Shown piece after piece: positions 1-13,812 of a stretch of DNA of 64,000 nt. The notes under the pieces were generated by a model, which was not told the origin of the DNA, ran no database searches, and worked only from the letters and a program-made list of their open reading frames with translations. Made by a program: the position numbers and the translations under genes. The stretch's first letter is position 1, and every line of letters begins with the position of its first letter. The stretch comes from an uncultured Enterobacteriaceae bacterium. GTDB lineage: Bacteria > Pseudomonadota > Gammaproteobacteria > Burkholderiales > SG8-39. The DNA is taken from NCBI GenBank assembly GCA_964565875.1, contig CAZMGP010000001.1, forward strand, positions 123,747 to 187,746, given 5' to 3'.

Positions 1-1
1 C

Positions 2-493
2 CAGATACCGCCGATACGGGAACGGCGCGACGACATCCCCGCACTCGCGTTCCATTTCCTCAAGGTGTTCAACGAAGAACTGGGCAAGAAGGTGACCGAA
101 TTCTCCGAGGGCGCGATGAGCGCGCTCGTGCACCACGACTGGCCCGGCAACGTGCGCGAACTGGAGAATACGGTACACCGCGCGGTGATCCTCGCCACCG
201 ATCAGGTGGTGCGTCAGGCGCATTTGACCAATATCGCCGAGGCACAGGCCGATGTCGACGTGCCCAAGACCAGCGACGAGCTGAAGCGGATCAAGAAGGC
301 CGCGCGGGAGAAATCAGTGGAGAACATCGAAAAGCTGTTCGTGCTCGAAGCACTCAAGCGCAATGCCTGGAACGTCACCAAGAGCGCCGAAGAGACCGGC
401 ATGCAGCGTGCAAACTTTCAGGCGCTGATGAAGAAATACGACATCCGCATCCGCGGTACGGAGCCCGACCCTGCCGGGTCGGCCAACGACTAG
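2..493 (+). CDS. sigma-54-dependent enhancer-binding transcriptional activator, C-terminal fragment (5' end outside window)
   Basis: The frame is open from the window edge. The translation carries DWPGNVRELEN, typical of the end of the bacterial EBP AAA+ domain. A Fis-type HTH follows (WNVTKSAEETGMQRANFQALMKKYDI). Confidence 0.9.
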   Translation, partial: QIPPIRERRDDIPALAFHFLKVFNEELGKKVTEFSEGAMSALVHHDWPGNVRELENTVHRAVILATDQVVRQAHLTNIAEAQADVDVPKTSDELKRIKKAAREKSVENIEKLFVLEALKRNAWNVTKSAEETGMQRANFQALMKKYDIRIRGTEPDPAGSAND

Positions 494-1078
494 GCATTAC
501 TCCCCTTACCTGCCCGCATTGCCCGCCGAGAACGCTCGGCGTGCAGCACACCTCCGCAACCTGAACGAGACGCCGTCCGTCGCCTAGAACGGAACGGCGT
601 ACGCGAGTTGCGTCCGCTGGTTTGGCGGCGCGGCGGGAGGCGGTGCGTCACGTATACCCGATAGCAAATCCCTTCTGCTGTCTGACGTGACAATTGTCAA
701 AACCTACTTGACGGCGGCAGATACCCTTACGCGGTAACTGTCGGGAGACGCAATGTCAAGTTGCCAAGAAGAAGACACGACGACAGGAGGAAAACCCCGC
801 GCGGGTGATCCACTCGCGCCGGCCTCGTTTCCCCGGCATTCAGCTTTCTCGTCACCTGCGTTAGGGGCGGAGTACCGACTCTGTGACGATCGCCGCCCCG
901 ACGCGTCGCGCACGCCCACGATCCGATTGCCATATTCGCCTGCTCGAACCGTCACGCAAACGGCATCGCGCCATGGCATTGCGCCACAGGGACAGTGTTG
1001 AATGCAGTCACTCGAGTTTCGCAAGATCCATTGGCCGTCGCGGCTTAAGCAGCGCCCAGTACCCTACGGAGGCACGAA

Positions 1079-2242
1079 ATGGTTTTGTTAATCGTCGTTG
1101 TCACGATCATCGTCTTTGTCCTGGTGGACTTTGCACTACGCGTGTATCTGGAACAAAGGCGCGAATTGAATCTGAGAAAGGAGCGCGAGCAAGCCCTCGA
1201 CATCGGCCTGAAGCTCGATGTCTCCAATGAGGCCAAGTCGCTCAAGCGCGTCGAAGTCAACGACCCGAAAGCGAGGATCCTGGCGGTCGACGACGAACCC
1301 ATCATCCTGGACAGTTTCCGCAAGATTCTCGTCGTCGCCGGCTATAGCATCGATACCGTCGAGCGGGGCAGCGAGGCACTCGGCCTGATCCTCAAGAACG
1401 ACTACGACTTCGTGTTTACCGACTTGAAGATGCCCGAAATGGACGGCTTGGAAGTGACCAAAGCGGTCAAGCACCTGCGTCCGGACATAGACGTGATCGT
1501 CATCACCGGCTATGCCTCGATCGAAACCGCAGTGGAAACGATGAAATTCGGCGCGATGGATTATGTGCAGAAACCGTTTACCGAAGATGAACTGATCGAG
1601 TTCTTCAACAAGTCCCTCATAAAACGCAAGGACCGCATCGAGCGGCAGATGAAGCCGACCGTACGTCTGATCACGCCGAGCATCCAGGAGTCCTCGTCGA
1701 AGCACGAGTTCAACGTGCCGGCGGGTGTCTTCGTCTCGAAAAACCACACCTGGGTCGACATCGAACTGAACGGCACGGCGCGCGTCGGCATCGACGACTT
1801 CGCGCGCAAGATCGTGAAGAAGATCGACCGGCTCGACTTGCCCAAGCCGAACAAGGAAATCAAGAAAGGCGATCCGCTGTTTTCGATTCACAACAATTCG
1901 CAGACGATAGCGGTCGCTTCTCCCATCAGCGGCAAGGTCACCCTGGTGAATACGGAACACATCGAGCATCCGGAATGGATCGTGTCGAAGCCCTTCGAGC
2001 TCTCCTGGATGTGCTGCGTAGAACCGTCCAATCTCGCGGAAGAGTTGCGCTCGCTGAAGATCGGCGTGGATACGATCAACTGGTACAAGGAAGAAATCGA
2101 CAAGTACAGCGAGATCGTGAAAGGCGTGGAGAAGGGCGCGCAGCAGCAGGCAGCGACGGGAAGCGCCGCCGACAAAGCGCAGACGCAAGGGTTGGAACAG
2201 AAAATTCTCGGAGAATTCGCCAATACTTTCCTCGCCAGATAG
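1079..2242 (+). CDS. membrane-anchored response-regulator receiver fused to a GcvH-like (lipoyl-fold) domain
   Basis: A GGAGG lies 7 nt upstream of the ATG. There is an N-terminal TM helix (VLLIVVVTIIVFVLVDFAL). The REC motifs are present (ILAVDDEP, FTDLKMPEMDG, YVQKPF). The C-terminus aligns by eye with glycine cleavage protein H (KNHTWVD..GTARVGIDDFA...SPISGKV). Confidence 0.85.
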   Translation: MVLLIVVVTIIVFVLVDFALRVYLEQRRELNLRKEREQALDIGLKLDVSNEAKSLKRVEVNDPKARILAVDDEPIILDSFRKILVVAGYSIDTVERGSEALGLILKNDYDFVFTDLKMPEMDGLEVTKAVKHLRPDIDVIVITGYASIETAVETMKFGAMDYVQKPFTEDELIEFFNKSLIKRKDRIERQMKPTVRLITPSIQESSSKHEFNVPAGVFVSKNHTWVDIELNGTARVGIDDFARKIVKKIDRLDLPKPNKEIKKGDPLFSIHNNSQTIAVASPISGKVTLVNTEHIEHPEWIVSKPFELSWMCCVEPSNLAEELRSLKIGVDTINWYKEEIDKYSEIVKGVEKGAQQQAATGSAADKAQTQGLEQKILGEFANTFLAR

Positions 2243-2300
2243 CGAACCCCTGGCGGGCGGGCCGCGTGACATTCAATCGCACAAGTGAATAGGGGTGGTC

Positions 2301-2759
2301 ATGCCTAGAAATCTCATCGTCGTGGCAGCAGCGCTGGTGTGGCTCGCCCTGGGCGTGCCCACGGTAGCGAGCGCAGTCGAGGTGCCGATCGATATCACGA
2401 TCCCCTCGTCGGTAGGCGAAGTGCTGTTTCGCCATCAAGCCCATATCAAGGATCGCTCCATCAACTGCGTCGAATGCCATCATCAGATTAACGCCAAGCA
2501 GTTGAAGACGCCGCACCCGGATTACTTCAATTCCTCCTGGATCAACTGCAAGACCTGTCACGAAGCGGGGGAAAAGGCCGCGCAGAAAGCCTTTGTCTGT
2601 TCGGAATGCCACCGCGCGACGCCGACCAACATCGCGGACGAAACGCTCAGTGCCAAGGTGGTCGTACACAAGCAATGCTGGAAATGCCATCCAGTGAGCT
2701 CAGGCAAGGACGCAAGCGCCGCCTGCGAGCTGTGCCATTTCGGCAAGAAACGCCTCTGA
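2301..2759 (+). CDS. periplasmic multihaem cytochrome c, c3-like, five CxxCH motifs
   Basis: There is a signal peptide (LIVVAAALVWLALGVPTVASA). The haem motifs are CVECH, CKTCH, CSECH, CWKCH and CELCH. The ORF track starts at GTG 2295; ATG 2301 has a purine-rich SD just upstream. Confidence 0.9.
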   Translation: MPRNLIVVAAALVWLALGVPTVASAVEVPIDITIPSSVGEVLFRHQAHIKDRSINCVECHHQINAKQLKTPHPDYFNSSWINCKTCHEAGEKAAQKAFVCSECHRATPTNIADETLSAKVVVHKQCWKCHPVSSGKDASAACELCHFGKKRL

Positions 2760-2798
2760 GCGATGCAGTCGCTAATCCGTCTTTAGATAGGGCAGATC

Positions 2799-3662
2799 AT
2801 GGACAGAAGACAGTTTCTAACGACATCGGCCGCTGCCGTGATACCGATCAAGGTCGCGAAAGCCGCCGCCAGCGAGGAAAAGAAGGAGTTCATCGGCGTC
2901 CTCGTCGACACCACGCGCTGCATAGGATGCAGATCGTGCGAGGTCGCGTGTTCGGTGGCGAACGGCAATTTCATTCCGGACGTGAAGACCGACGGCGCGC
3001 TGGAAAAAGTCCGGGATACCACCGAAAGGCAATTCACCGTGGTGAACCGATTCAAGACGGACAAAGGCGACGTGTTCGTCAAGCGACAATGCATGCATTG
3101 CTCGCAGCCGGCTTGCGCGGCGATGTGTCTGGTGAATGCGATGGCCAAGACCAAGGACGGGCCGGTCACCTGGGACGGCGACAAGTGCCTGGGATGCAGA
3201 TTCTGCATGGTTTCCTGCCCGTTCGATATTCCCAAAGCCGAGTATCTCTCGTGGAACCCGCGAATCATGAAGTGCAGCATGTGCTACGAGAGGCTGCAGG
3301 AAGGCAAGAAACCCGCGTGCGTGGAGGCCTGTCCGACTGACACCCTGATGTTCGGGCCGAAGCGCCAGCTCATGGAAATCGCGCGCCATCGCGTCTACAG
3401 CCATCCCGACAAGTACGTGCACCAGATCTACGGCGAGCACGAAGCCGGTGGCACCGGCTTTCTCTACTTGTCCGCCGTTCCGTTCAACCAGCTCGGCTTC
3501 AGGACCGATCTCGGCACCACACCCTACCCCGAGTACACCAAGCCGTTTCTGGTATCCGTGCCGCTCATACTTTTCGGCGTGCCCGCGTTGCTGCTCGGCT
3601 TGAGCGAGCTGACGGACAGAAAGAAGGAAGTGGGCGAACGCGAGGGTTGGACAAATGAATAA
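2799..3662 (+). CDS. Tat-exported four-cluster [4Fe-4S] ferredoxin subunit (HybA/NrfC/DmsB-like) with C-terminal TM anchor
   Basis: A twin-arginine leader is present (MDRRQFLTTSAAAV). There are four Cys cluster motifs (CIGCRSCEVAC, CMHCSQPACAAMC, CLGCRFCMVSCP, CSMCYERL..KPACVEACP). The tail is hydrophobic (FLVSVPLILFGVPALLLGL). Confidence 0.9.
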   Translation: MDRRQFLTTSAAAVIPIKVAKAAASEEKKEFIGVLVDTTRCIGCRSCEVACSVANGNFIPDVKTDGALEKVRDTTERQFTVVNRFKTDKGDVFVKRQCMHCSQPACAAMCLVNAMAKTKDGPVTWDGDKCLGCRFCMVSCPFDIPKAEYLSWNPRIMKCSMCYERLQEGKKPACVEACPTDTLMFGPKRQLMEIARHRVYSHPDKYVHQIYGEHEAGGTGFLYLSAVPFNQLGFRTDLGTTPYPEYTKPFLVSVPLILFGVPALLLGLSELTDRKKEVGEREGWTNE

Positions 3663-4851
3663 TTCAGCGGTGGTCAGCGGCGAAGTTAGCAGGCTGTTCA
3701 AGTTCTTCCTGCAGGAGCTGAAACCGAAAGGCAAGTGGCTGACGCCCTTCAACATCATCTCCATTCCGATCATGCTCGCGGGCCTGGTGATCCTGGTGCT
3801 GCGCTTCATCTACGGCATCGGCTCGGTCACCAATCTCAATCAGCAATATCCCCTGGGGATCTGGGTCGGATTCGACGTGGTCACCGGGGTGGCGCTTGCC
3901 GGCGGCTCCTACGTCATCTGCTTCGTCGTCTACGTGATGCGAATGGATAAATATCATTCGATCGCGCGCGCCACCGTCCTGAACGGCCTGTTGGCCTACG
4001 TCTTCTATGCCGGAGCCTTGACGCTCGACCTTGGGCGGCCTTGGCATATGGTCAACCCGATCATCGGCAACTCCTACGGCTACAACTCGGTGCTGTTCCT
4101 GGTCTCGTGGCACTTCTTGCTCTACATGTTCGCCCAGTTCGTGGAGTTCTCCCCGGTCATCGCCGAGTGGGCGCACCTGGAGAAACTGCGCAAGTTCCTG
4201 TCCAGCCTGACCCTCGGCGCAGTGATATTCGGCATCACCCTGTCGCTGCTGCACCAATCCGGCCTGGGCGCGCTGTTCCTGATGGCGAAGCCGAAGATCC
4301 ATCCGTTGTGGTACTCGGAATTCATTCCGATCCTCTTCTTCGTGTCGAGCATCTACGCCGGCTTGGCGATGATCATCTTCGAGGGCACGATCAGCCACAA
4401 GGTATTCAAGGACTTGATCGCCGGCCACGATCACCGTCACTACGAAGAAATCGTGCTCGGTTTGGGCAAAGGGGCGGCGATCACCATGTTCGTCTACTAT
4501 TTCTTCCAGGCCCTGCTGTTCATCCACGAAAAGCGCTGGGCGCTGATTACCGACTTCTGGGGCTACTGGTATCTGTTCGAGGTGATCGGCTTCGTACTCA
4601 TTCCCTGTTTCATGTTCGCTTACGCGACCAGGAACCGGAACCTCGGCATCATGCGCGTCGCCTCCGTCATGGCGCTGCTGGGGATCATTCTTAATCGCCT
4701 GAATGTCACCGTGATCGCCTACCGCTGGTACGACGTGGAGAAATACTATCCGTCGGCAGGCGAGTACATCGTGACCTTGATGGTGGTGTTCACGGAAATC
4801 TGGGTGTTCCGCTGGATAGTCACCAGAATGCCCGTGTTCACCAAAGATTAG
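3655..4851 (+). CDS. NrfD/HybB-type polytopic membrane quinone-interacting subunit
   Basis: The start overlaps the stop of the FeS gene (ATGAATAA). The 398-aa protein has many predicted TM helices. Its position after an HybA-like FeS protein is typical of NrfD-family complexes. Confidence 0.85.
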   Translation: MNNSAVVSGEVSRLFKFFLQELKPKGKWLTPFNIISIPIMLAGLVILVLRFIYGIGSVTNLNQQYPLGIWVGFDVVTGVALAGGSYVICFVVYVMRMDKYHSIARATVLNGLLAYVFYAGALTLDLGRPWHMVNPIIGNSYGYNSVLFLVSWHFLLYMFAQFVEFSPVIAEWAHLEKLRKFLSSLTLGAVIFGITLSLLHQSGLGALFLMAKPKIHPLWYSEFIPILFFVSSIYAGLAMIIFEGTISHKVFKDLIAGHDHRHYEEIVLGLGKGAAITMFVYYFFQALLFIHEKRWALITDFWGYWYLFEVIGFVLIPCFMFAYATRNRNLGIMRVASVMALLGIILNRLNVTVIAYRWYDVEKYYPSAGEYIVTLMVVFTEIWVFRWIVTRMPVFTKD

Positions 4852-4865
4852 CCGGAGGATAGTCA

Positions 4866-4994
4866 ATGGAATACTACAGTTACGTCAACATCTTCGAAAC
4901 CAAGGGCCTGGAATACCTGCTGCTGTTGTCGTTCTTGGTGCTCGGCGGCTTGCTGATCAGATATCTCTCCGCTCCGGAAAAGAAGGACAAGTGA
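4866..4994 (+). CDS. 42-aa single-TM small protein (too short for the ORF track)
   Basis: A GGAGGA lies 7 nt upstream of the ATG and 15 nt after the NrfD-like stop. My translation is MEYYSYVNIFETKGLEYLLLLSFLVLGGLLIRYLSAPEKKDK. It has one hydrophobic helix and a basic tail. Confidence 0.55.
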   Translation: MEYYSYVNIFETKGLEYLLLLSFLVLGGLLIRYLSAPEKKDK

Positions 4995-5052
4995 TTCGGC
5001 AGTTGCCGCACAGCGCCAGGTCGCGGGCGCAGTCCGGGCGCCCGCAAACGAA

Positions 5053-6924
5053 ATGACCTTAGGCGAAACAAAGATCGGCTTGAAGCTGATCGTGGCGGTG
5101 GCGGTTGTCACCATCGTCATCATCGGCGCCTTTTCCTACTTCAGCATCCGTGCGCAAAGCGAGGCCTTGCTGTCGCAGGCGGGCATCCACGCCAACAAGC
5201 TGAGCGACGCGATAAAGAACGCGACCCGCAGCGGCATGCTGGAAAACCGCAAGGAAGAGGTTCATTCCATCATCAAGACCGTTTCGCACGAACCGAGCAT
5301 TACGGAAATCAGGATTTTCAACAAAGAAGGGGTCGTCAGCTTTTCCTCCCGCGAAAACTCGATCGGCAAGATGGTGGATAAGCGTGCCGAAAGCTGCTAC
5401 GCCTGCCACACGGAGAACGCGCCGCTGCAAAAGCTTCCCATCGCCGAACGAATGCGCATTTACAAGATCAGCCAGGATTCGCCGCGCATCCTCGCGGTGA
5501 TCAATCCGATCTACAACGAGCCGTCGTGCTCGCAGGCGAGCTGCCACGCGCACACCAAGGACCAGACCGTGCTGGGCGTGCTCGACATCAAAATGGACTT
5601 GAAGGATGTCGATCGCCAGATCGAGGACAGCAAGTTCCGCTTGATCGTTTTTGCGGCGATCGCCATTCTGGCCTTCAGTTTCTTGCTCGCTTATTTCGTC
5701 AGGAAATGGGTCGGCAAACCGGTCACGGAATTGGTGAAGGCGACCAATCAGGTGAGTTCGGGCAATTTGAGCTACACCATCGACAATCCGGGAAAGGACG
5801 AACTCGGCGCGTTGGCAAGGTCGTTCAACAAGATGACCAAGAGCCTGGCAGAAGCCAAGGCGCAGCTGTTTCAAGCCGACAAAATGGCTTCCCTCGGCAG
5901 ACTCGCCGCGGGCGTCGCGCACGAGATCAACAATCCGCTGACGGGCGTCCTGACCCACAGCAGTTTCCTGCTCAAGCGCACCAAGGACAATCCGGAATTG
6001 CAGGAGAGCCTGGAAGTCATCGTTCGCGAGACCATCCGCAGCAGGGAAATCGTCAAGGGACTGCTCGATTTTTCGCGGCAGTCGGTACCGAAGAAGCACA
6101 GCGCCGACATCAACAAGATCATCAAGAATGCGATCGACGTGGTCGCAACGCAGCTACTGCTCAAGCATATTGCGCTCGACGGCCGTTTCGATGCTTCGCT
6201 GCCGGAAATAACAGTCGACGCAAATCAGATTCAGCAGGTATTCATCAACTTGCTGGTGAATGCGGCGGACGCAATCGGGGATAACGGCGGTGAAATAGCG
6301 ATCGTTCCGTCCTTGATTTCGCTGGCGCCGCACGGTTTGGCGCAGATCAAGGCGGCCGTATGCCCGAAGCACCACGACCTGCTGGATAACGACGTGAGGT
6401 GTTACGGATTGCCGACCGTCAAAGTCAAAGTGCTCGCAAACGGGAACGAAGGCGTCGTCAATCTGGACCCAGTCTACGGCAAACACAGACATCAGTACGG
6501 AATCGAAATTGGCAATGCGAAAGATCAGAAGATTCTATGTCCGCAGTGCAATACCTCGTTGATCGAGGAGGGCGTGAAATGTCCGAAATGCGCGTCCTCG
6601 GTGTATGGTTTCGAAGTGCCGCCGCACGGAATCTTCGAAGGCTGCGCGAACCCGGATTGCGATTGGCAACGCTGGCAAGTGCTGGATGAAGCGGGCCACA
6701 AAGATTACATCGAGGTGAGAGTAAAGGATAACGGGCAAGGTATTCCGCCGGAAGATTTGGCGCGAATATTCGAACCGTTCTACACCACCAAAGGGCAATT
6801 CGGAACCGGCCTCGGGCTTGCGATCACATGGGGAATCATAGATAATCATCACGGCACGATTAATGTAGAAAGTGACGCAGGGAAGGGAACTACATTCATC
6901 GTTCATCTGCCGCTGCAAGCGTGA
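5053..6924 (+). CDS. sensor histidine kinase with periplasmic haem-c motif(s), HAMP domain and a Cys-rich insertion in the ATPase domain
   Basis: Two TM helices flank a ~170-aa periplasmic domain containing CYACH (nt 5395-5409) and CSQASCH. HAMP is present (GNLSYTIDNPGKDELGALARSFNKM), as are the H-box (AAGVAHEINNPL), N-box (INLLVNAADAI), and G1/G2 boxes (DNGQGIP, GTGLGLAI). About 130 extra residues sit between the N and G1 boxes. Confidence 0.9.
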   Translation: MTLGETKIGLKLIVAVAVVTIVIIGAFSYFSIRAQSEALLSQAGIHANKLSDAIKNATRSGMLENRKEEVHSIIKTVSHEPSITEIRIFNKEGVVSFSSRENSIGKMVDKRAESCYACHTENAPLQKLPIAERMRIYKISQDSPRILAVINPIYNEPSCSQASCHAHTKDQTVLGVLDIKMDLKDVDRQIEDSKFRLIVFAAIAILAFSFLLAYFVRKWVGKPVTELVKATNQVSSGNLSYTIDNPGKDELGALARSFNKMTKSLAEAKAQLFQADKMASLGRLAAGVAHEINNPLTGVLTHSSFLLKRTKDNPELQESLEVIVRETIRSREIVKGLLDFSRQSVPKKHSADINKIIKNAIDVVATQLLLKHIALDGRFDASLPEITVDANQIQQVFINLLVNAADAIGDNGGEIAIVPSLISLAPHGLAQIKAAVCPKHHDLLDNDVRCYGLPTVKVKVLANGNEGVVNLDPVYGKHRHQYGIEIGNAKDQKILCPQCNTSLIEEGVKCPKCASSVYGFEVPPHGIFEGCANPDCDWQRWQVLDEAGHKDYIEVRVKDNGQGIPPEDLARIFEPFYTTKGQFGTGLGLAITWGIIDNHHGTINVESDAGKGTTFIVHLPLQA

Positions 6925-7385
6925 TCGCGGCCGCGGCAGAAGAGTCAAGAAGTCGCTAGTGCCCGATGCAGCTAACACAGCTGATCCCTCAAAGATCCCA
7001 ATGGGTCGCATGCTTCCGCAGCCTATCGCAATAATCGCGATGGAGTGCGCGACTCGAGATTTCCTGCCGCCCGCGAAAGCAGGATCCGCCAATTCGGCAG
7101 CACCACGTCCCGCAGCGTTCCCTGCCGGAACCGTCGGACGCGGCTCCATCACCTTGCCCGATTTCGTTCGGCGGGTTCATCTCAACTAAATCACCTCGAG
7201 AGACCGACGCGAGCAAAGCGATGCCGCAGCGCGAGCAGGCAAATTTGAAATGGATAAGCGACAGGGAAAGACCGTATTCCCCGGCAAGGGCAAAGGACGG
7301 AGCTGTTAGCGCTTCGATGCGGACGCTAACCTGGCTGTGGACATCGGATTCACGTTTATACGACATGCAATCATAGAGGGCTGAA

Positions 7386-8711
7386 ATGGCGACTTGGCGC
7401 AGAAGACGCAACGCGATCGGAACGAAGTTTTGCATCAACTCAATCTCGGCCGTGGCGCACGCGTTGGCGGCGGCAGTGCTCGCGCTTGCGAGCCTCACCG
7501 CCGTGGCGGCCGCCGGCCAGATATCCCAAGCCGATCAGCAGTGCCTGGGCTGCCACGGGACCAAAGGCATGGAGACGAAAGCGGCCGATGGCGATACTTT
7601 GTCCTTGTATGTGCAAGCCGACCTGTTCGCGAAATCGGTTCACAGCATGATCGGCTGCGCCGTCTGCCACGGCGACGCCACGCTGGCGAACCACCCTCCG
7701 CTCAAGAAGAAGATCGCGAGCGTCCGCGAGCACTCGCTCGAATTGACGAAGGTCTGCTCGTCTTGCCACGGTGCCATTGCCAAACAGTACCAGGGCAGCA
7801 TCCACGCCACGCTATTGCGTAACGGCGTCTCGGTCGCGCCGGTCTGCAGCGATTGCCACAGCCCGCACGCGGTGATGGCGAAAGCCGCCTACGACGCCGC
7901 GAGCGGGGCGCCCTGCAGCAAGTGCCACGATTCCATCTTCGGCGCCTATAAGGGCAGCGTGCACGGCAAGGCCACGCTTGCCTGCTCGAACTGCCATAAG
8001 TCGCATGACGTGAGCCCCGCGGCGGGCGAGGACAAGCTGAAGAACGCCTGCCTCGGTTGCCATCCGGACGCGTTGACGGCGCACCAGACTTGGCTGCCGA
8101 ATTCCGAGCGGCACTTCGACGCGGTGTCCTGTCCCGCGTGCCACGTGCCGGGAGCGAAGCGCAAGGTCGACCTCAGGCTCTACGACAATGTGGCGCAGCG
8201 GCGCGTCGCCGAAAGAGAGGGCGTGCCGCAATTCGAAAGTCGGGTGCGTTCAGCAGACGCGAAGGGCGTCGGACTGGATGCGATGGCACTGCACAGCCTG
8301 CTGCGCGAATTCGGCCGCGACCGCGGCGACAGCAAAATGACCCTGCGCGGCCGGCTGGAAGTCGCGAACGGCGTCGAGGCGCATCAACTTACGCGCAAGG
8401 ACCAGGCGATTCGCGATTGCACCAAATGCCACCAGCAAGGCGCCGATCCGTTTCAGAGCGTGACCGTTTCCATCGTCGGACCCGACGGCCGGCCGGTGCG
8501 CTACGGTGCGCAAAAAGAAGTGCTGAATTCGATCATATCGGTGGATTCGGTGAGCGGGTTCTACGCCATCGGCGGCACCCGGATCAAGCTGCTGGATGCG
8601 CTGCTCGTCCTCGCGCTGATGGGCGGCTTCGGCGTGCCGATCGGCCATGCGACGGTGAGATGGTTGTTCAAGAAATACGCGAAGAAGATCAGCGGAAAAG
8701 AAGACTCCTGA
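7386..8711 (+). CDS. nine-haem c-type cytochrome with C-terminal membrane anchor
   Basis: There is a signal peptide and nine CxxCH motifs (CLGCH, CAVCH, CSSCH, CSDCH, CSKCH, CSNCH, CLGCH, CPACH, CTKCH). A C-terminal TM helix follows (LLDALLVLALMGGFGVPIG). Confidence 0.9.
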   Translation: MATWRRRRNAIGTKFCINSISAVAHALAAAVLALASLTAVAAAGQISQADQQCLGCHGTKGMETKAADGDTLSLYVQADLFAKSVHSMIGCAVCHGDATLANHPPLKKKIASVREHSLELTKVCSSCHGAIAKQYQGSIHATLLRNGVSVAPVCSDCHSPHAVMAKAAYDAASGAPCSKCHDSIFGAYKGSVHGKATLACSNCHKSHDVSPAAGEDKLKNACLGCHPDALTAHQTWLPNSERHFDAVSCPACHVPGAKRKVDLRLYDNVAQRRVAEREGVPQFESRVRSADAKGVGLDAMALHSLLREFGRDRGDSKMTLRGRLEVANGVEAHQLTRKDQAIRDCTKCHQQGADPFQSVTVSIVGPDGRPVRYGAQKEVLNSIISVDSVSGFYAIGGTRIKLLDALLVLALMGGFGVPIGHATVRWLFKKYAKKISGKEDS

Positions 8712-8774
8712 GGTCGAAGACCCGGATCCTCTCGAGTTGCCACGCCGACCGCACACAGTTAAAGGAACTTCGCA

Positions 8775-9410
8775 ATGGAAAGAATCTACGTTCACCCCTT
8801 ACCCGTCAGGATCTGGCACTGGATCAACGCGCTCGGTTTCCTGACCATGATGCTCACCGGCTTTCAGATCCGCTACATCGGGTTGTTCGACCTGATGTCG
8901 TTCCGCACGGCGGTCGTGGTGCATAACTGGGTGGGTTTCGCCCTCATCGCCAATTTCTTCGTCTGGCTACTGTTTTACCTGTTCTCGGACAAGATCCGCG
9001 TCTACCACCCGGAACTGAGCCCGATGAAGCATTTCCAGGCGAGCTTCCGCCAAGCCATGTATTACGGCTACGGCATATTCAAGGGTGATCCCAACCCGCA
9101 CCATGTCAGCGTCTACCGCAAGTTCAACTCGATGCAGAGCATGAGCTATCAAGTCATCATGCTTCTGCTGGTGCCTATCCAGTTCTATACCGGCGTGCTG
9201 CTGTGGGAGGTGAAGGGCTTCTCCGGCATGATCGACCTGCTTGGCGGGGTGCGCGTGGTGGATACGGCGCATGTGCTCATTTTCATATTCTTTGCCGGCT
9301 TCATTCCGATGCACATCTATCTTGCGCTTCTCGGCCACACCCCCATGGCGCACATCAAATCCATGTTGACCGGCTACGAAGAAGTAGAGGAAGAGCACGG
9401 AGTCAATTGA
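8775..9410 (+). CDS. b-type cytochrome membrane subunit (PhsC/FdnI/HydC-like)
   Basis: AAAGGAA lies upstream of the ATG. The N-terminus (YVHPLPVRIWHWINALGFLTMMLTGFQIRY) is typical of this four-helix di-haem b family. Conserved His residues sit in the helices. Confidence 0.8.
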   Translation: MERIYVHPLPVRIWHWINALGFLTMMLTGFQIRYIGLFDLMSFRTAVVVHNWVGFALIANFFVWLLFYLFSDKIRVYHPELSPMKHFQASFRQAMYYGYGIFKGDPNPHHVSVYRKFNSMQSMSYQVIMLLLVPIQFYTGVLLWEVKGFSGMIDLLGGVRVVDTAHVLIFIFFAGFIPMHIYLALLGHTPMAHIKSMLTGYEEVEEEHGVN

Positions 9411-9464
9411 AGGACGCGGCGAGCCCGCAGCGCCCAACTCGAGCCCGGTCTCGCGCCAATGAAA

Positions 9465-9498
9465 ACGGCCGGGGCGGATTATGGTCCGCCCCGGCCGT
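9465..9498 (-). terminator. candidate intrinsic terminator for the minus-strand receiver operon
   Basis: A 14-bp GC-rich stem (ACGGCCGGGGCGGA / TCCGCCCCGGCCGT) has a 6-nt loop. On the minus strand it is followed by TTTTCATT. Confidence 0.55.
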
Positions 9499-9533
9499 CA
9501 GCTTGAGGGTCGTGCGTCGGGTTTACTTGGAAG

Positions 9534-9636
9534 CCCGTAACAAACGGAGGTTTGTTACGGGCCGATTTAGAGGAGCACGAGGGGAGGCGCCCCGCAGGAA
9601 GTGCCCTTGGGGCATATCCCCTCGTCTTGTCACAAA
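9534..9636. repeat. structured ~100-nt repeat, copy 1 (partner at 25626-25726)
   Basis: It is near-identical to 25626-25726. It has two hairpins: CCGTAACAAA/TTTGTTACGG, and ACGAGGGGA...TCCCCTCGT with an inner GCCCC/GGGGC stem. It lies between the stop of the minus-strand gene 9630-10421 and the terminator at 9465-9498. Confidence 0.8.
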
Positions 9637-10421
9637 CTCTTCGTTTCGCTATTTCCCGCCAGCGCCTTGGCGCCGAGCTTGCTCCAGGCTTGCAGGCCGA
9701 ACCAGAGCAGCATGCCCAGCCCGACAATCGGTCCGATGACGAAGAACGCGAGGCCGATGAACGGGGCCGCCACTAGCATGCCGAACTGTTTCAGCGCGCT
9801 CGGCTTCGCCGGAGCTGCGGCCGGCATGCGCGCGGCTTGTTCCGCTTTCTTCTGTTGCGCTTCGATGGCCATCCACGCGAGCATGCCCAGACCAACGATC
9901 GGGAAGGTCAGGATGTAGGCGAGGCCGACGAAGGGAGCGGCGAAGAATAGCGCCACGTTCTTGACGAAGCGCAGGATGCCGCCCGCAGCTTTGGGTGCCG
10001 GCGCCGCTTCCGCAGCACCTTCGGCAGCGACGGCGGCTGCCGGTGCCGCTGCTTTTTCCGACAGGGCTTTCGCCGCGCTGCCTTCGATCATTTCGGGCGA
10101 CAGCGGCTTGCGCAGGAAAGCCGATACGCCGGCCGCTTCCGCGCGCGCCTCGTTGTCGCTCGAGCCGTAGCCGGTGACGATGACCACCGGCAGCCACGGC
10201 CGCTGCGCTTTGACGCGCTCGGCCATTTCCAGGCCGCTCATGCCGGGCATTTTGATATCGGTGAACACCACGTCGTAATCTTCCGCATCGAGCTTGGCTA
10301 ATGCCTCTTGGCCATTGTTCGCGGTGATCACCGCGTAGCCCTTTCCGGAAAGAACCCGGTCGAAGCTTTTCCCGACCACCGGATCGTCGTCTACCACTAA
10401 AACTTTGCGAATTGCGCTCAT
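9630..10421 (-). CDS. response-regulator receiver fused to a duplicated C-terminal membrane segment
   Basis: The REC motifs are present (VLVVDDDP, FTDIKMPGMSG, FLRKPL). An Ala-rich linker follows, then two similar hydrophobic blocks (ALFFAAPFVGLAYILTFPIVGLGMLAWMA and GMLVAAPFIGLAFFVIGPIVGLGMLLWFG). An AAGGAG SD lies upstream of the ATG. Confidence 0.85.
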   Translation of the reverse strand: MSAIRKVLVVDDDPVVGKSFDRVLSGKGYAVITANNGQEALAKLDAEDYDVVFTDIKMPGMSGLEMAERVKAQRPWLPVVIVTGYGSSDNEARAEAAGVSAFLRKPLSPEMIEGSAAKALSEKAAAPAAAVAAEGAAEAAPAPKAAGGILRFVKNVALFFAAPFVGLAYILTFPIVGLGMLAWMAIEAQQKKAEQAARMPAAAPAKPSALKQFGMLVAAPFIGLAFFVIGPIVGLGMLLWFGLQAWSKLGAKALAGNSETKSL

Positions 10422-10436
10422 GATTTTCTCCTTGTC

Positions 10437-10886
10437 TCAATAGGTAAAGCTGCTGGCATTACGGCCGGAGCCGGATGCCTGAATCTGTCCCGTACCGTCT
10501 TGGCGCATGGCCCATTTCTTCTGCGTCATTGCGCCGTTCGCCACGTTGATCACGTCGTCGGGTCCGACCGGCTTGGCGAGGTAGTCGTAAGCGCCAAGGC
10601 GAACCGCCTCCTTCGCGCTCTCGATGGTCGGATAGCCGGTGACAATCACGACCTCGGTTGCCGGCCATCTTTGCTTGAGCGCCTTCAATACCGCCATGCC
10701 ATCCATGCCGGGCATGCGCAGATCGAGCAGCACCACATCGGCCGCGCGCCGTTCCATCGCCGCGATCGCCTGCTCGCCATCCGCAACCACTTCCACGCTG
10801 CAATGAACGCTCGCGAGGGTGCGGATATGGCTCAAGCGCACCACCTCTTCGTCGTCCACCACCAGGACTCTGGTTTTCTCGCTCAT
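10437..10886 (-). CDS. stand-alone CheY-like response-regulator receiver
   Basis: The motifs are VLVVDDEE, LLDLRMPGMDG and YLAKPV. ATG 10886 has GAGGTGA 6 nt upstream; the ORF track start at 10895 is a GTG. Confidence 0.88.
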   Translation of the reverse strand: MSEKTRVLVVDDEEVVRLSHIRTLASVHCSVEVVADGEQAIAAMERRAADVVLLDLRMPGMDGMAVLKALKQRWPATEVVIVTGYPTIESAKEAVRLGAYDYLAKPVGPDDVINVANGAMTQKKWAMRQDGTGQIQASGSGRNASSFTY

Positions 10887-10922
10887 GTTCGTCACCTCGG
10901 ATCAGTCCTTTCACTCGAGGTA

Positions 10923-10939
10923 ATGCAACGTCCATGCCA
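10923..10939 (-). promoter_or_regulatory. sigma-54 (-24/-12) promoter
   Basis: The minus strand reads CTGGCATGGACGTTGCATTA. This is TGGCAT-N5-TTGCA against the consensus TGGCAC-N5-TTGCW. It lies about 35-50 nt upstream of ATG 10886. Confidence 0.75.
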
Positions 10940-11164
10940 GAGCCCGACGGCTAGGCGATTCTTCTCTAATCGTCAGAGACTTAAGTCGCGAGCGCGGCTA
11001 TCGTGGCGCGGGTGAGGGGCGCGTCGTGCGGGCGCCGAAGTATATTTTTCTTATTCAGCTTGCGGCCGGACGAAGGGAAAAATCAGTCGATTTTCAACTG
11101 CATAGACCTTGCCCGCAGGCGCGCAAAAAAAATATACGCAGCAGAGCGCCACTTCTGGACGACT

Positions 11165-11194
11165 GAAACAAAACGAGGGGACAAGTCCCCTCGT
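11165..11194 (-). terminator. intrinsic terminator downstream of the glutaredoxin-like gene
   Basis: The stem is ACGAGGGGA-CAAG-TCCCCTCGT. On the minus strand it is followed by TTTTGTTT, about 25 nt after the stop at 11220. Confidence 0.75.
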
Positions 11195-11219
11195 TCTGCA
11201 ATTCACACTAAGGAAGAAA

Positions 11220-11696
11220 TCAGGGCGTAGCCGTCTTGGGATAGCCGGCGGTATCGAGCGCCTCGTTCCAGGCTTGCGCTTCGAAATCCTTCTGCACCAC
11301 GGTGCCCACCGTCAGCACCGGCACCCGCGGCGCGCCCGCGAGCTTCGTCAGCTGGTCGATTTCTTCCTGGGTGGAGATGACTTTCTCGGCGTACGGCACG
11401 CCGCGCTTCTTCAGGAAATCCAGACCCTTCTTGCATGGGTCGCCGCAATCCTTGGAGGTGTAGACCGTGACCGGAAAATTCTTCGTCGCCTGCTCGAGCG
11501 CGTAAGGCTTTTGCGGCGCAGCCGCCGGACGCGCCGACTCCTTCTTTTGCACATTCTTTGCGCTCGCCGGCGGCGGCGTGTCGGTGTAGTGCACTGCGCC
11601 GCCGTCGTCGGTCCAGCGATAGAGTTGGGCCGCGGCGCTAGTGGCAAGGGCGAACAGACTAACTGCGATGAGTGCGCGCATGGTGCGTCTCGACAT
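11220..11696 (-). CDS. secreted DUF4124-type N-terminal domain fused to a glutaredoxin-like domain
   Basis: There is a signal peptide. LYRWTDDGGAVHYTDTPP is the DUF4124 signature as I recall it. The sequence VTVYTSKDCGDPCKKGLDFLKKRGVPY..VPVL looks like a glutaredoxin fold with a CxxC motif. Confidence 0.75.
   Translation of the reverse strand: MSRRTMRALIAVSLFALATSAAAQLYRWTDDGGAVHYTDTPPPASAKNVQKKESARPAAAPQKPYALEQATKNFPVTVYTSKDCGDPCKKGLDFLKKRGVPYAEKVISTQEEIDQLTKLAGAPRVPVLTVGTVVQKDFEAQAWNEALDTAGYPKTATP

Positions 11697-11766: not shown

Positions 11767-13812
<2,046 letters not shown>

What the first reader, a model, noticed from the sequence alone, without database searches (positions are those of the whole stretch)
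1..10940. Respiratory island: two cytochrome/quinone modules without a catalytic subunit, wired to a sigma-54 multi-receiver circuit
Seen directly, module A is a 5-haem periplasmic cytochrome c, a Tat 4x[4Fe-4S] protein, an NrfD-type membrane subunit and a 42-aa TM peptide (2301-4994). Module B is a membrane-anchored 9-haem cytochrome c plus a b-type cytochrome (7386-9410). No molybdopterin, hydrogenase, sirohaem or other catalytic subunit lies between or beside them in the window. They are interleaved with an EBP tail, a haem-motif kinase and three receiver proteins that have no DNA-binding output. A near-consensus sigma-54 promoter drives two of those receivers. By established analogy, FeS+NrfD+cytochrome trios without a catalytic subunit act as quinol:periplasmic-cytochrome conduits (Desulfovibrio Tmc/Nhc/Qrc-type, Geobacter Cbc-type complexes). 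A nine-haem plus di-haem-b arrangement recalls Geobacter CbcL, but here it is split into two genes. Finding both in an apparently betaproteobacterial background, under such a dense phosphorelay, is unusual. By eye these genes also use more A/T-ending codons than the flanking prlC and aceE genes, which suggests horizontal acquisition. I infer a redox-sensing, sigma-54-controlled periplasmic electron-export or import system.
Basis: partly seen in the sequence, partly recalled or inferred. Interest (0 to 1): 0.8.

Follow-up and report, generated by a model that had tools for sequence, protein, structure and literature searches.

The report
CbcBA-type cytochrome locus with Nhc-like cassette
This stretch of an uncultured Burkholderiales genome encodes two inner-membrane quinone-to-periplasmic-cytochrome electron modules, one a clear relative of the Geobacter CbcBA/BccR system and the other an Nhc/Hmc-like cassette carrying an undescribed receiver-GcvH-like subunit, so it is a real but mostly recognisable respiratory locus.

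Summary
Module A is a 5-haem cytochrome c, a Tat FeS protein, an NrfD protein and a 42-aa TM peptide. Module B is a 9-haem C-terminally anchored cytochrome c plus a cytochrome b. Two haem-sensor kinases, a sigma-54 EBP and three output-less receivers complete the locus. No catalytic subunit lies in the window or in the 5 kb upstream.

Module B and the regulators are homologues of the G. sulfurreducens cbcBA locus:
- CbcB: 42% identity, E 2e-54.
- CbcA (PDB 28pb): E 2e-27, all seven haem motifs aligned, with two extra haems inserted.
- BccR: 53% identity.
- Kinase: 41% identity.

The sigma-54 promoter recurs at the same distance in 56 of 57 related loci. In this genome an inversion has cut it off from the cytochrome genes. 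The cytochrome b probe matched 303 species genomes, and the best 80 are mostly Burkholderiales, so the cluster is common there.

Module A is an Nhc/Hmc-like insert. Five of six distant TM-anchored homologues of its receiver-GcvH-like protein (no lipoyl lysine, conserved Cys) sit beside c3-type cytochrome genes without CbcBA. Four of those loci also show FeS and NrfD genes.

GC3 does not differ from the flanks (p=0.08), so there is no sign of recent transfer. Verdict: new variant of a known kind.

The parts
2..493 (+). C-terminal 163 aa of a BccR-like REC-sigma54 enhancer-binding protein. The full 473-aa gene and a 542-aa haem-sensor kinase lie just upstream of the window.
   Evidence: AAA_lid_14 plus HTH_8 domains. 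The full gene is seen in L001. It is 53% identical over its full length to Geobacter BccR, E 6e-178.
687..700 (.). FNR/Anr-type palindrome GTGACAATTGTCAA, about 380 nt upstream of the REC-GcvH gene
   Evidence: TTGACAATT(G/A)TCAA occurs at the equivalent place in L003, L006, L007, L014, L008 and L017. A strict box is present in 9 of 16 loci, against 0.03 expected per locus. That an FNR-family regulator binds it is an inference.
1079..2242 (+). Membrane-tethered receiver-GcvH-like protein: N-terminal TM helix, a REC domain with intact acidic pocket, and a GcvH fold without the lipoyl lysine but with an invariant Cys-Cys pair
   Evidence: Response_reg and GCV_H domains. TM helix at residues 1-26. 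The lipoyl Lys position is Ser when aligned to pea and E. coli H-protein. The WMCC motif is invariant. Distant homologues sit in c3-FeS-NrfD cassettes.
2295..2759 (+). Periplasmic 5-haem c3/c7-type cytochrome (module A)
   Evidence: 5 CxxCH motifs and a signal peptide. Cytochrome_C7 and CIII domains. Weak similarity to TmcA and to Geobacter CbcC.
2799..3662 (+). Tat-exported 4x[4Fe-4S] protein with a C-terminal TM anchor, of the HmcB/HybA type (module A)
   Evidence: HmcB model 326 bits (cut-off 420); HybA model 211 bits (cut-off 263). RRQFL signal and TM helix at residues 247-272.
3655..4851 (+). NrfD-family quinone-interacting membrane subunit with about 10 TM helices, of the HmcC/NhcC/HybB type (module A)
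   Evidence: PF03916. HmcC model 381 bits (cut-off 550); HybB model 235 bits (cut-off 450).
4866..4994 (+). 42-aa single-TM peptide, in the position of NhcD/HmcD (module A)
   Evidence: 69-88% identical in relatives. A 43-46-aa gene occupies the same position in the stand-alone cassettes L092 and L094.
5053..6924 (+). Sensor kinase paralogue: periplasmic domain with CxxCH and Cx4CH motifs, then HAMP, HisKA and HATPase, with a roughly 115-aa Cys-rich insert in the ATPase domain. Probably the cognate kinase of the REC-GcvH protein.
   Evidence: Domains. 36% identical to the Geobacter kinase next to bccR. The same haem-motif sensor domain occurs in the upstream kinase and in CbcD. In L091 a 50%-identical kinase sits directly before two REC-GcvH genes.
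7386..8711 (+). CbcA-like 9-haem cytochrome c with a C-terminal TM helix carrying a conserved His
   Evidence: E 2e-27 to G. sulfurreducens PCA CbcA. The match is collinear, all 7 CbcA CxxCH motifs align, and 2 extra motifs (residues 200 and 222) are inserted after haem 5.
8775..9410 (+). CbcB-like four-TM b-type cytochrome
   Evidence: 41.6% identity to Geobacter CbcB, E 2e-54, with His15, His50, His166 and His180 aligned. PhsC model 113 bits, below its cut-off of 204.
9630..10421 (-). Receiver fused to two repeated TM hairpins (REC-TM)
   Evidence: Response_reg domain only. TM segments. Conserved next to the small receiver gene in most of the 80 loci.
10437..10895 (-). Stand-alone receiver, the first gene behind the sigma-54 promoter. 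The likely true start is the ATG at 10886.
   Evidence: Response_reg domain. Synteny. Sequence read.
10925..10939 (-). Sigma-54 (-24/-12) promoter TGGCATGGACGTTGC
   Evidence: One mismatch to the consensus. Matches of at least 8/10 occur in 56 of 57 loci, nearly all at the same distance.
11037..11139 (-). Two A/T-rich repeat elements (about 11037-11056 and 11121-11139), 100-200 nt upstream of the -24 box. They are candidate EBP binding sites.
   Evidence: Aligned on the promoter, relatives show TGTACA-N8-TGTACT-like repeats at both places and a YAA-N4-TTGATW IHF-like site between them and the promoter. The window copies are partly degenerate. Binding is inferred.

Best explanation
The region is a composite locus for anaerobic, redox-regulated electron exchange between the quinone pool and periplasmic multihaem carriers. 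It is built from two separable units.

Unit 1, the ancestral core, is a CbcBA-type bc cytochrome. A four-helix b-type cytochrome takes electrons from quinol and hands them to a 9-haem c-type cytochrome anchored beside it. That cytochrome's C-terminal helix probably supplies a haem-b ligand. The unit is controlled by a periplasmic haem-c sensor kinase, a BccR-like sigma-54 activator and a sigma-54 promoter that first transcribes two output-less receivers.

Unit 2, an insert found only in a subclade, is an Nhc/Hmc-like cassette: a soluble 5-haem cytochrome, a Tat FeS protein, a haem-free NrfD quinone subunit and a small TM peptide. It brings a membrane-tethered receiver-GcvH-like protein and a paralogous haem-sensor kinase as its own control pair.

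No terminal reductase is encoded here. The modules feed, or draw from, periplasmic or outer-membrane partners encoded elsewhere.

Shown: gene content, homologies, promoter conservation, the insertion and inversion history, and the co-occurrence of the cassette genes.

Inferred: direction of electron flow, FNR control, kinase-receiver pairing, and physical association of the receiver-GcvH protein with the NrfD complex.
For: - Domains and topology are given.
- Direct comparison with a G. sulfurreducens-type cbcBA locus (L085, whose gene order matches Joshi et al., bioRxiv 10.1101/2021.04.15.440034): CbcB 41.6% identity, E 2e-54; CbcA E 1e-27; BccR 53%, E 6e-178; kinase 41%, E 7e-143.
- PDB 28pb chain A is identical to residues 30-294 of the PCA protein AAR33925.1 and matches the window protein at E 2.4e-24.
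- The cytochrome b probe matched 303 species genomes, and the best 80 loci were fetched. In most of those 80 the order is REC, REC-TM, multihaem c, cytochrome b, with EBP and kinase convergent downstream.
- The sigma-54 promoter is present in 56 of 57 loci.
- Module A lies between REC-TM and the CbcA-like gene in 14 of the 80 loci, and 3 more truncated contigs show its kinase. About 55 loci carry the core only.
- FeS and NrfD score best against HmcB and HmcC. The four-subunit architecture equals NhcABCD as summarised in PMC8076601.
- Stand-alone cassettes with the same five genes in the same order occur in L092 and L094. The order FeS-NrfD-c-X occurs in L088 and L090; L087 and L089 are other contigs carrying that same P0399 gene.
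- FNR-type boxes are enriched 10-fold or more in front of module A, the CbcA-like gene and the kinase/EBP operon.
Against: - No experiment exists for any proteobacterial member.
- CbcA-level identity is only 25%.
- Burkholderiales normally use ubiquinone rather than menaquinone (from my own knowledge), so the low-potential role shown in Geobacter may not carry over.
- No outer-membrane conduit or periplasmic acceptor is encoded within 64 kb.
- In this genome the sigma-54 promoter no longer precedes the cytochrome genes, and the FNR box before the CbcA-like gene is degenerate. How modules A and B are transcribed here is therefore unknown.
- The FeS and NrfD proteins fall below the NCBIfam equivalog cut-offs for HmcB and HmcC.
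- One TM-anchored REC-GcvH homologue (L091) has no cytochrome genes within 9 kb.
Confidence: 0.7

Rival explanations
1. Module A works in the opposite direction, as a periplasmic-cytochrome:quinone reductase like Desulfovibrio Nhc. The island would then be an electron-uptake or redox-loop system, importing electrons from Fe(II), H2, formate or a partner organism through periplasmic cytochromes, rather than an export route. CbcBA and the NrfD module would then cover different directions or potential windows.
For: NhcABCD is described as a TpIc3:quinone oxidoreductase, and HybAB passes electrons to quinone (PMC8076601). FeS and NrfD score best against HmcB/HmcC and next against HybA/HybB. The presence of two different quinone modules in one operon suggests they are not redundant.
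Against: Direction cannot be read from sequence. NrfD modules also work as quinol oxidases, for example Nrf and Psr. No uptake conduit such as Cyc2 or MtoAB, and no hydrogenase, lies in the window.
Confidence: 0.3
2. The two modules are orphaned membrane-anchor subunits of a conventional catalytic enzyme encoded elsewhere in the genome. Candidates are a Hyd-2-type hydrogenase (HybA/HybB-like) or a thiosulfate, polysulfide or tetrathionate reductase (PhsC- or PsrC-like).
For: There are secondary NCBIfam matches to HybA (211 bits), HybB (235 bits) and PhsC (113 bits). Sources annotate the cytochrome b as 'thiosulfate reductase cytochrome b subunit'.
Against: All of those scores are below the curated cut-offs, and the best matches are HmcB/HmcC and CbcB. 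Each module carries its own multihaem cytochrome as the periplasmic partner. No catalytic gene accompanied the modules in the 80 related loci as far as the synteny map and domain listings show, nor in the stand-alone cassettes.
Confidence: 0.08
3. The whole island is a recent horizontal acquisition in this genome.
For: G+C is 0.55-0.59 across 1000-7000, against about 0.64-0.66 in most of the flanking sequence. GC1 and GC2 are significantly lower than in the flanks. Module A is absent from most related loci. A similar cassette occurs in unrelated lineages.
Against: GC3 is not different (p=0.083). The same island lies next to prlC in 9 species-level relatives, and in a tenth (L012) the short contig stops at the intervening DUF4124 gene. 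Their prlC proteins are only 80-83% identical to the window's and their island proteins 47-89%, so the island is old and vertically inherited within this clade. No integrase, tRNA or repeat boundary was noticed, although tRNA and repeat scans were not run.
Confidence: 0.07

Closest known systems
Geobacter sulfurreducens CbcBA with BccR (Cbc5 locus GSU0593-0599; Joshi, Chan and Bond 2021)
   Same: - A b-type cytochrome of the PhsC-like four-helix type directly follows a multihaem c-type cytochrome whose C-terminal TM helix carries a His.
- A REC-sigma54 activator and a kinase with a CxxCH/Cx4CH periplasmic sensor lie adjacent.
- A sigma-54 promoter precedes small receiver or membrane genes at the head of the operon.
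- A second copy of the haem sensor domain lies nearby (CbcD there, the island kinase here).
- Sequence homology holds for all four main proteins.
   Different: - Nine haems instead of seven, through a two-haem insert. Relatives also show 7- and 13-haem forms.
- The leading genes are REC plus REC-TM rather than 80-aa, REC and 77-aa proteins, with no detectable homology between them.
- EBP and kinase are arranged differently.
- In this genome the operon is broken by an inversion.
- The host is a Burkholderiales bacterium, probably using ubiquinone.
- CbcC and CbcE have no counterparts here, whereas an NrfD cassette is inserted.
Desulfovibrio NhcABCD / HmcABC(DEF) cytochrome complexes
   Same: A periplasmic c3-family multihaem cytochrome, a Tat 4x[4Fe-4S] protein with a TM anchor, a 10-helix haem-free NrfD subunit and a small hydrophobic peptide, with no catalytic subunit. 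HmcB and HmcC are the best-scoring curated families. The hmc operon is also followed by a response-regulator gene, rrf1 (from my own knowledge).
   Different: - Five haems rather than nine or sixteen.
- Scores are below the equivalog cut-offs.
- There is no HmcE or HmcF.
- A membrane-tethered receiver-GcvH-like protein is a conserved fifth gene.
- In the 2020 survey of complete genomes, NhcC was not found in Betaproteobacteria (PMC8076601).
Geobacter CbcL (Cbc1)
   Same: Nine c-type haems plus a dihaem b domain, forming an inner-membrane quinol oxidase for extracellular respiration.
   Different: CbcL is a single fused protein with six TM helices. Joshi et al. state that it shares no sequence homology with CbcB. 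The window genes match CbcA and CbcB instead.
Geobacter Cbc4 (CbcSTU) and Shewanella SirCD
   Same: Both are cytochrome-FeS-NrfD quinol dehydrogenases without a catalytic subunit.
   Different: CbcS is a membrane-anchored tetrahaem cytochrome. No receiver-GcvH gene has been reported for these systems. No direct sequence comparison could be made here.
E. coli hydrogenase-2 HybA/HybB
   Same: The same FeS plus 10-helix NrfD pair facing the periplasm. These are the second-best curated matches.
   Different: No hydrogenase subunits are present, and a cytochrome c takes their place.

Membership tests
CbcBA / BccR system (Geobacter) | CbcB: four-TM PhsC-like b-type cytochrome with conserved haem-ligand histidines | tested here: met
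   41.6% identity over 209 residues, E 2e-54. His15, His50, His166 and His180 align with CbcB histidines.
CbcBA / BccR system (Geobacter) | CbcA: periplasmic multihaem cytochrome with a C-terminal TM helix bearing a His, encoded directly before cbcB | tested here: met
   Collinear alignment, E 2e-27. All 7 CxxCH motifs align, with two extra inserted. GHATVRW aligns with IHGTFRF in the TM helix. The gene lies 64 nt upstream of the cytochrome b gene.
CbcBA / BccR system (Geobacter) | Adjacent REC-sigma54 activator (BccR) and neighbouring sensor kinase | tested here: met
   EBP 53% identity, E 6e-178. Kinase 41% identity, E 7e-143, with the same CxxCH/Cx4CH sensor domain.
CbcBA / BccR system (Geobacter) | Cytochrome genes transcribed from a sigma-54 promoter at the head of the operon | tested here: inconclusive
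   The promoter is conserved in 56 of 57 loci and heads the operon in collinear relatives. In the window it faces only the two receiver genes because the cytochrome segment is inverted, and no sigma-54 site precedes module A or B.
CbcBA / BccR system (Geobacter) | Required for respiration of acceptors below about -0.21 V; induced late in Fe(III) reduction | not testable with these tools
   This needs genetics and electrochemistry in a cultured carrier.
NhcABCD / Hmc complexes (Desulfovibrio) | Periplasmic c3-family multihaem cytochrome subunit | tested here: met
   5 CxxCH motifs. Cytochrome_C7/CIII domains. TmcA and HmcA models hit weakly.
NhcABCD / Hmc complexes (Desulfovibrio) | HmcB/NhcB-type FeS and HmcC/NhcC-type NrfD subunits at equivalog level | tested here: not met
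   These are the best families, but scores are below the curated cut-offs: 326 against 420 and 381 against 550. The proteins are related, not orthologous by NCBI's criterion.
NhcABCD / Hmc complexes (Desulfovibrio) | Small hydrophobic fourth subunit (NhcD/HmcD) | tested here: inconclusive
   A conserved 42-aa TM peptide sits in the right position. No model or reference sequence was available to test homology.
NhcABCD / Hmc complexes (Desulfovibrio) | For Hmc only: cytochrome b HmcE and cytoplasmic CCG/FeS protein HmcF | tested here: not met
   No such genes lie in or beside module A. The architecture is therefore Nhc-like, not Hmc.
CbcL (Geobacter) | Single polypeptide fusing a six-TM dihaem b domain to a nine-haem c domain | tested here: not met
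   There are two separate genes, and the cytochrome b has four TM helices and matches CbcB. The CbcL sequence itself was not available for comparison.
Hydrogenase-2 membrane module (HybA/HybB) | HybA and HybB equivalogs encoded with HybO/HybC hydrogenase subunits | tested here: not met
   Scores are below cut-off: 211 against 263 and 235 against 450. No hydrogenase genes lie in the window or in L001.
Thiosulfate reductase PhsABC | PhsC equivalog together with molybdopterin PhsA and FeS PhsB | tested here: not met
   PhsC model 113 bits against a cut-off of 204. No molybdopterin gene is present.
Glycine-cleavage H / lipoyl carrier proteins | Lipoyl-lysine in the ESVKA hairpin | tested here: not met
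   The position is Ser in the window protein and Ser or Ala in 18 close homologues. The fold is kept, but the domain is not a lipoyl carrier.

The most novel reading that the evidence does not exclude
The membrane-tethered receiver-GcvH-like protein may be an undescribed fifth subunit of a widespread Nhc-type cytochrome-FeS-NrfD complex. It would place a quinone-coupled respiratory complex under direct post-translational two-component control. A periplasmic haem-sensor kinase would phosphorylate the receiver, and the non-lipoylated, Cys-bearing GcvH-like domain would then gate or re-route electron or proton flow in the NrfD module. Its fusion into the CbcBA operon would give Burkholderiales-type hosts a redox-potential-switched pair of quinone modules.
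Probability: 0.25. Interest if true: 0.75.

Novelty: new variant of a known kind. Interest (0 to 1): 0.55.

Why it matters
CbcBA is one of three inner-membrane gates that let Geobacter match respiration to the redox potential of extracellular acceptors. [quoted passage not shown] The library searches here found no paper linking it to Burkholderiales or Rhodoferax, although that library covers only part of the literature.

A complete CbcBA/BccR-type cluster is common in uncultured and cultured Burkholderiales (Rhodoferax, Polaromonas, Ideonella, Sterolibacterium) and in Steroidobacteraceae. These groups dominate groundwater and freshwater iron-cycling communities. This gives a concrete and genetically tractable candidate for their inner-membrane step.

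The conserved pairing of an NrfD cassette with a receiver-GcvH-like protein across distant lineages points to a regulatory or structural component of NrfD complexes that reviews of the family do not list. That prediction can be tested by co-purification and phosphotransfer assays.

Tried and rejected
- A sigma-54 search by pattern count alone gave 53 matches against 78 expected, which is uninformative. My first promoter script had an indexing error and found nothing; it was corrected.
- No sigma-54 site lies upstream of the REC-GcvH gene, the 5-haem gene, the island kinase or the CbcA-like gene. The generic sigma-70 and terminator scan showed nothing above chance.
- PDB sequence searches with the NrfD protein and the cytochrome b returned no hits.
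- A profile built from the REC-TM C-terminal repeats did not match the Geobacter 77-aa and 80-aa operon proteins (E 0.4 or worse). The idea that REC-TM is a fusion of those genes is not supported.
- The AlphaFold model of the REC-GcvH protein was poor (mean pLDDT 52), so no fold search was run.
- An Rfam scan of 1-11800 found no credible RNA family (one hit at E 0.73).
- Literature searches linking CbcBA to Rhodoferax, Burkholderiales or Betaproteobacteria, and NrfD to GcvH, found nothing relevant. The ircABCD and PCC3 genes of iron oxidisers came up and were set aside, because IrcA and IrcB are described there as di- and monohaem cytochromes, unlike the proteins here.
- Recent horizontal transfer was rejected on GC3 and synteny.
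- ACIII and Qrc were rejected. QrcC and QrcD score only 64 and 56 bits, and there is no molybdopterin-like subunit.

Full report
**What is in the sequence**

On the plus strand lie:
- 2-493: the last 163 residues of a sigma-54 enhancer-binding protein.
- 1079-2242: a 387-aa protein with an N-terminal TM helix, a receiver domain and a glycine-cleavage-H-like domain.
- 2295-2759: a 154-aa secreted cytochrome with five CxxCH motifs.
- 2799-3662: a Tat-signal four-cluster FeS protein with a C-terminal anchor.
- 3655-4851: a roughly ten-helix NrfD protein.
- 4866-4994: a 42-aa TM peptide.
- 5053-6924: a HAMP-HisKA-HATPase kinase whose periplasmic loop carries CYACH and CSQASCH.
- 7386-8711: a 441-aa cytochrome with nine CxxCH motifs, a signal peptide and a C-terminal TM helix.
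- 8775-9410: a PF01292 cytochrome b.

On the minus strand lie a receiver fused to two TM hairpins (9630-10421) and a stand-alone receiver (10437-10895).

The contig that carries the identical REC-GcvH gene (L001) shows what precedes nt 1. It holds the rest of the EBP (473 aa), a second HAMP kinase (542 aa) and an unrelated Exo_endo_phos gene.

Downstream come a DUF4124/glutaredoxin-like protein, prlC, a PAS kinase, the pyruvate dehydrogenase genes, rpiA, phoU and other housekeeping genes. No other ORF in the 64 kb has more than one CxxCH motif. The claim that no catalytic subunit lies nearby therefore holds.

**Module B and the regulators are a CbcBA/BccR-type system**

A PDB sequence search with the nine-haem protein hit one chain, 28pb_A, at E 2.4e-24. 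I rebuilt that chain from the printed alignment. It is 100% identical to residues 30-294 of G. sulfurreducens PCA protein AAR33925.1. A 2026 review lists a CbcA structure as 'PDB 2BPB', one character away from 28pb (PMC13591261).

The genomic context of a 97%-identical Geobacter protein (L085) reproduces the published cbcBA locus of Joshi et al. (bioRxiv 10.1101/2021.04.15.440034). Its order is kinase, divergent bccR, an 80-aa protein, a receiver, a 77-aa protein, CbcA, CbcB, then CbcC, D and E.

BLASTP of window and L001 proteins against that locus gave:

| Window or L001 protein | Geobacter protein | Identity | E-value |
|---|---|---|---|
| Cytochrome b | CbcB | 41.6% | 2e-54 |
| Nine-haem cytochrome | CbcA | 26% | 1e-27 |
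| Upstream EBP | BccR | 53% | 6e-178 |
| Upstream kinase | Geobacter kinase | 41% | 7e-143 |
| Island kinase | Geobacter kinase | 36% | 3e-92 |

Further points from the alignments:
- All seven CbcA haem motifs align with window motifs.
- The two extra motifs (CSNCH at residue 200 and CLGCH at residue 222) form one insert after haem 5.
- The His in the C-terminal TM helix, which Joshi et al. propose as a haem-b ligand, is conserved.
- The four kinase-type sensor domains (both window kinases, the Geobacter kinase and CbcD) share the CxxCH and Cx4CH motifs.

The better reference is therefore CbcBA, not a split CbcL. Joshi et al. state that CbcL shares no sequence homology with CbcB.

**Distribution and history**

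The cytochrome b has 2,188 relatives at E 1e-5 or better in the protein collection, and the top 120 are at least 74% identical. A pattern scan of one genome per GTDB species matched 303 species. The best 80 loci are nearly all Burkholderiales or 'Betaproteobacteria' MAGs, including Rhodoferax, Polaromonas, Ideonella and Sterolibacterium, plus Steroidobacteraceae, Sulfuricaulis and a few others. Some labels, such as Enterobacteriaceae, Streptomyces and Geobacteraceae, are probably mis-binned contigs.

Mapping the window proteins onto these loci shows three arrangements:
- About 55 loci carry a common core of REC, REC-TM, multihaem c and cytochrome b, followed convergently by EBP and kinase.
- Fourteen loci additionally carry the block REC-GcvH, 5-haem c, FeS, NrfD, 42-aa peptide and kinase between REC-TM and the CbcA-like gene. 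Three more truncated contigs show this block's kinase.
- Eight of the fourteen are collinear on one strand (for example L008, L017 and L061).
- In the window and about ten relatives, the segment from REC-GcvH to cytochrome b is inverted relative to the flanks. This puts EBP and kinase upstream and REC-TM and REC downstream on the other strand. In nine of these relatives prlC follows the island. In a tenth (L012) the contig stops at the intervening DUF4124 gene.

Haem number in the CbcA-like protein varies by blocks. Nine haems occur in 56 loci, seven in 12 and thirteen in 3-4.

**Regulatory signals**

The sigma-54 element at 10925-10939 (minus strand) has one mismatch to TGGCAC-N5-TTGC. Pattern counting alone is uninformative. 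However, an 8/10 or better match is found in 56 of 57 loci, and in nearly all of them it lies 37-56 nt before the orthologous receiver gene.

Anchoring on the promoter reveals two conserved A/T-rich repeats about 100 and 190 nt upstream and an IHF-like site between them and the promoter. This is the classical layout of an EBP-dependent promoter. The window copies (about 11037-11056 and 11121-11139) are partly degenerate.

No sigma-54 site precedes the REC-GcvH gene or the CbcA-like gene. Instead, FNR/Anr-type palindromes (TTGAY-N4-RTCAA) occur there, against 0.02-0.03 expected per locus:
- upstream of the REC-GcvH gene: 9 of 16 loci with a strict box; the window has GTGACAATTGTCAA at 687-700;
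- upstream of the CbcA-like gene: about 9 of 47 loci;
- upstream of the kinase/EBP operon: 18 of 60 loci; L001 has TTGACGTCGGTCAA.

In relatives the box before the CbcA-like gene is followed by a TACCAT -10-like hexamer. In the window that box is degenerate (7031-7044).

My reading is an inference from these conserved sites. Oxygen limitation would switch on the sensor system and module A, and the haem-sensor kinase with the BccR-like activator would then fire the sigma-54 promoter. In this genome the inversion leaves only the two receivers under that promoter.

**Module A**

The FeS and NrfD proteins score best against the curated HmcB (326 bits) and HmcC (381 bits) models and next against HybA and HybB. 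All scores are below the equivalog cut-offs.

The architecture is cytochrome, FeS, ten-helix NrfD and a small peptide, without a cytochrome b or a cytoplasmic CCG protein. That matches NhcABCD as summarised by Calisto and Pereira (PMC8076601). Their survey found NhcC in Deltaproteobacteria, Clostridia and a few other phyla, but not in Betaproteobacteria.

**The receiver-GcvH-like protein**

This is the new element. Its properties are:
- Its receiver has the usual acidic pocket, Thr and Lys.
- The GcvH-like domain aligns with pea and E. coli H-proteins, but the lipoyl lysine is Ser.
- The family is very tightly conserved, with 76-81% identity among the top 120 clusters, and has an invariant WMCC motif.

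An exhaustive search of 50% representatives found full-length TM-REC-GcvH homologues down to 25% identity. Their contexts are as follows:
- P0399 (contigs L087, L088 and L089) and L090 carry FeS, NrfD, a c3-type cytochrome and this protein.
- L092 and L094 carry this protein, a small c3/c7 cytochrome, FeS, NrfD and a 43-46-aa peptide. This is the window's order, with FeS 62% and NrfD 59% identical in L092.
- L095 carries a c3 cytochrome followed by this protein, on a short contig that shows no FeS or NrfD gene.
- None of these loci shows CbcBA, an EBP or a kinase.
- L091 has a kinase 50% identical to the island kinase, including its insert, directly followed by two REC-GcvH genes but no cytochromes.

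The first Cys of the WMCC motif is kept in eight of the nine distant TM-anchored homologues aligned and is absent from soluble REC-GcvH proteins. Some members have degenerate receivers.

Five of six distant TM-anchored homologues thus sit beside c3-type cytochrome genes, and four of those five also show FeS and NrfD genes. I conclude that module A is a self-contained, phylogenetically scattered five-gene cassette. I also conclude that the island kinase and the REC-GcvH protein are probably a cognate pair. Physical association with the NrfD complex, and any gating role, are hypotheses.

**Horizontal transfer**

Mean GC3 is 0.789 for the ten island genes and 0.810 for 35 other genes in the window (p=0.083). 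GC1 (0.580 against 0.669, p=1e-4) and GC2 (p=7e-3) carry the difference in G+C. The 'A/T-ending codon' impression is therefore not borne out.

Conserved placement next to prlC in relatives whose prlC proteins are only 80-83% identical to the window's argues for vertical inheritance within this clade. What the data do support is an older insertion of the cassette into a CbcBA-type operon.

**Literature**

Joshi et al. report cbcBA homologues in other Deltaproteobacteria, Calditrichaeota, Bacteroidetes, Verrucomicrobia and Chloroflexi. Searches of the held library found no paper linking CbcBA to Burkholderiales or Rhodoferax, and none linking NrfD to a GcvH-like protein. The library is incomplete, so this is weak evidence that these links are unpublished.

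**Verdict**

However, most of the island is a recognisable relative of a characterised system that is common in this bacterial order, and the HGT argument fails.

The points of interest are:
- the betaproteobacterial CbcBA/BccR-type cluster itself;
- its nine-haem form;
- the inversion that uncouples it from its sigma-54 promoter;
- above all, the conserved association of an Nhc-like NrfD cassette with a receiver-GcvH-like protein.

I rate it a new variant of a known kind, with interest 0.55.

Noticed in passing
window 6304-6696 (residues ~418-548 of the kinase at 5053-6924): An insert of about 115 aa splits the HATPase domain between the N box and the DxGxG box. It contains CPKHH...C and CPQC...CPKC...C..C motifs, which look zinc-ribbon or rubredoxin-like. 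It is absent from the upstream kinase and the Geobacter kinase, but is kept in relatives and in the 50%-identical kinase of L091. No Pfam match.
   Followed up: partly
window 2009-2017 (WMCC, residues 310-313 of the REC-GcvH protein): An invariant Cys-Cys pair sits in the last strand of the GcvH-like domain, where canonical H-proteins have GW(M/I)(I/F)K. The first Cys is kept in TM-anchored homologues down to 25% identity. It could be a thiol or redox site.
   Followed up: partly
window 9630-10055 (C-terminal half of the REC-TM protein, minus strand): Two tandem copies of a TM-hairpin motif, (A/L)AAPF(V/I)GLA...P(I/V)VGLGML.W, are fused to a receiver. The motif has no Pfam family, is conserved in 56 loci, and is not detectably related to the two small membrane proteins of the Geobacter cbcBA operon.
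   Followed up: partly
window 494-1078 and 9411-9629 (the intergenic regions that must hold the breakpoints): Compared with collinear relatives (L008, L017, L061), the segment from the REC-GcvH gene to the cytochrome b gene is inverted in the window and about ten relatives. The exact breakpoints and any repeats at them were not mapped.
   Followed up: partly
window 7031-7044: The remnant ATAATCGCGATGGA stands where close relatives have an intact FNR-type box (TTGATCAAGATCAA) and a -10-like TACCAT in front of the CbcA-like gene. The window's intergenic region is also about 150-250 nt longer.
   Followed up: partly
window 44002-44015 and 48631-48644: Two perfect FNR-type palindromes occur elsewhere in the window. 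TTGACGGTTGTCAA lies in the divergent intergenic region before an isochorismatase-family gene. TTGATCTGGATCAA lies at the 5' end of a TctC-family receptor ORF.
   Followed up: no
window 11220-11696 (minus strand): A secreted DUF4124 plus glutaredoxin-like protein lies between prlC and the sigma-54 upstream region. It is conserved at this place in L003, L004, L005, L010 and L012. It is unclear whether it belongs to the system.
   Followed up: no
L093:2608-5549: A soluble REC-GcvH protein is followed by a REC-GcvH protein fused to an HdrC-like FeS domain. These sit next to a CCG (HdrB-like) protein, a FAD/2Fe-2S oxidoreductase and a Cache kinase. This is a second, different redox context for the receiver-GcvH architecture.
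   Followed up: no
L028, L043, L045, L068 (13 CxxCH); L023, L027, L031-L034, L038, L042, L057, L063 (7 CxxCH): The CbcA-like cytochrome comes in 7-, 9- and 13-haem versions across proteobacterial loci. This suggests growth by insertion of haem-pair blocks.
   Followed up: partly
L015, L018, L020, L037, L043, L082 (record titles): Loci 71-84% identical to the window's cytochrome b are labelled Enterobacteriaceae, Geobacteraceae, Streptomyces, Flavobacteriales or Chitinophaga. These are probably binning or labelling errors in the MAG records rather than real host range.
   Followed up: no
window 10886-10895 (minus strand): The ORF tool starts the small receiver at the GTG at 10895. An ATG at 10886, preceded by AGGTGA, is the more likely start. 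This would put the -12 element about 40 nt from the start codon.
   Followed up: no
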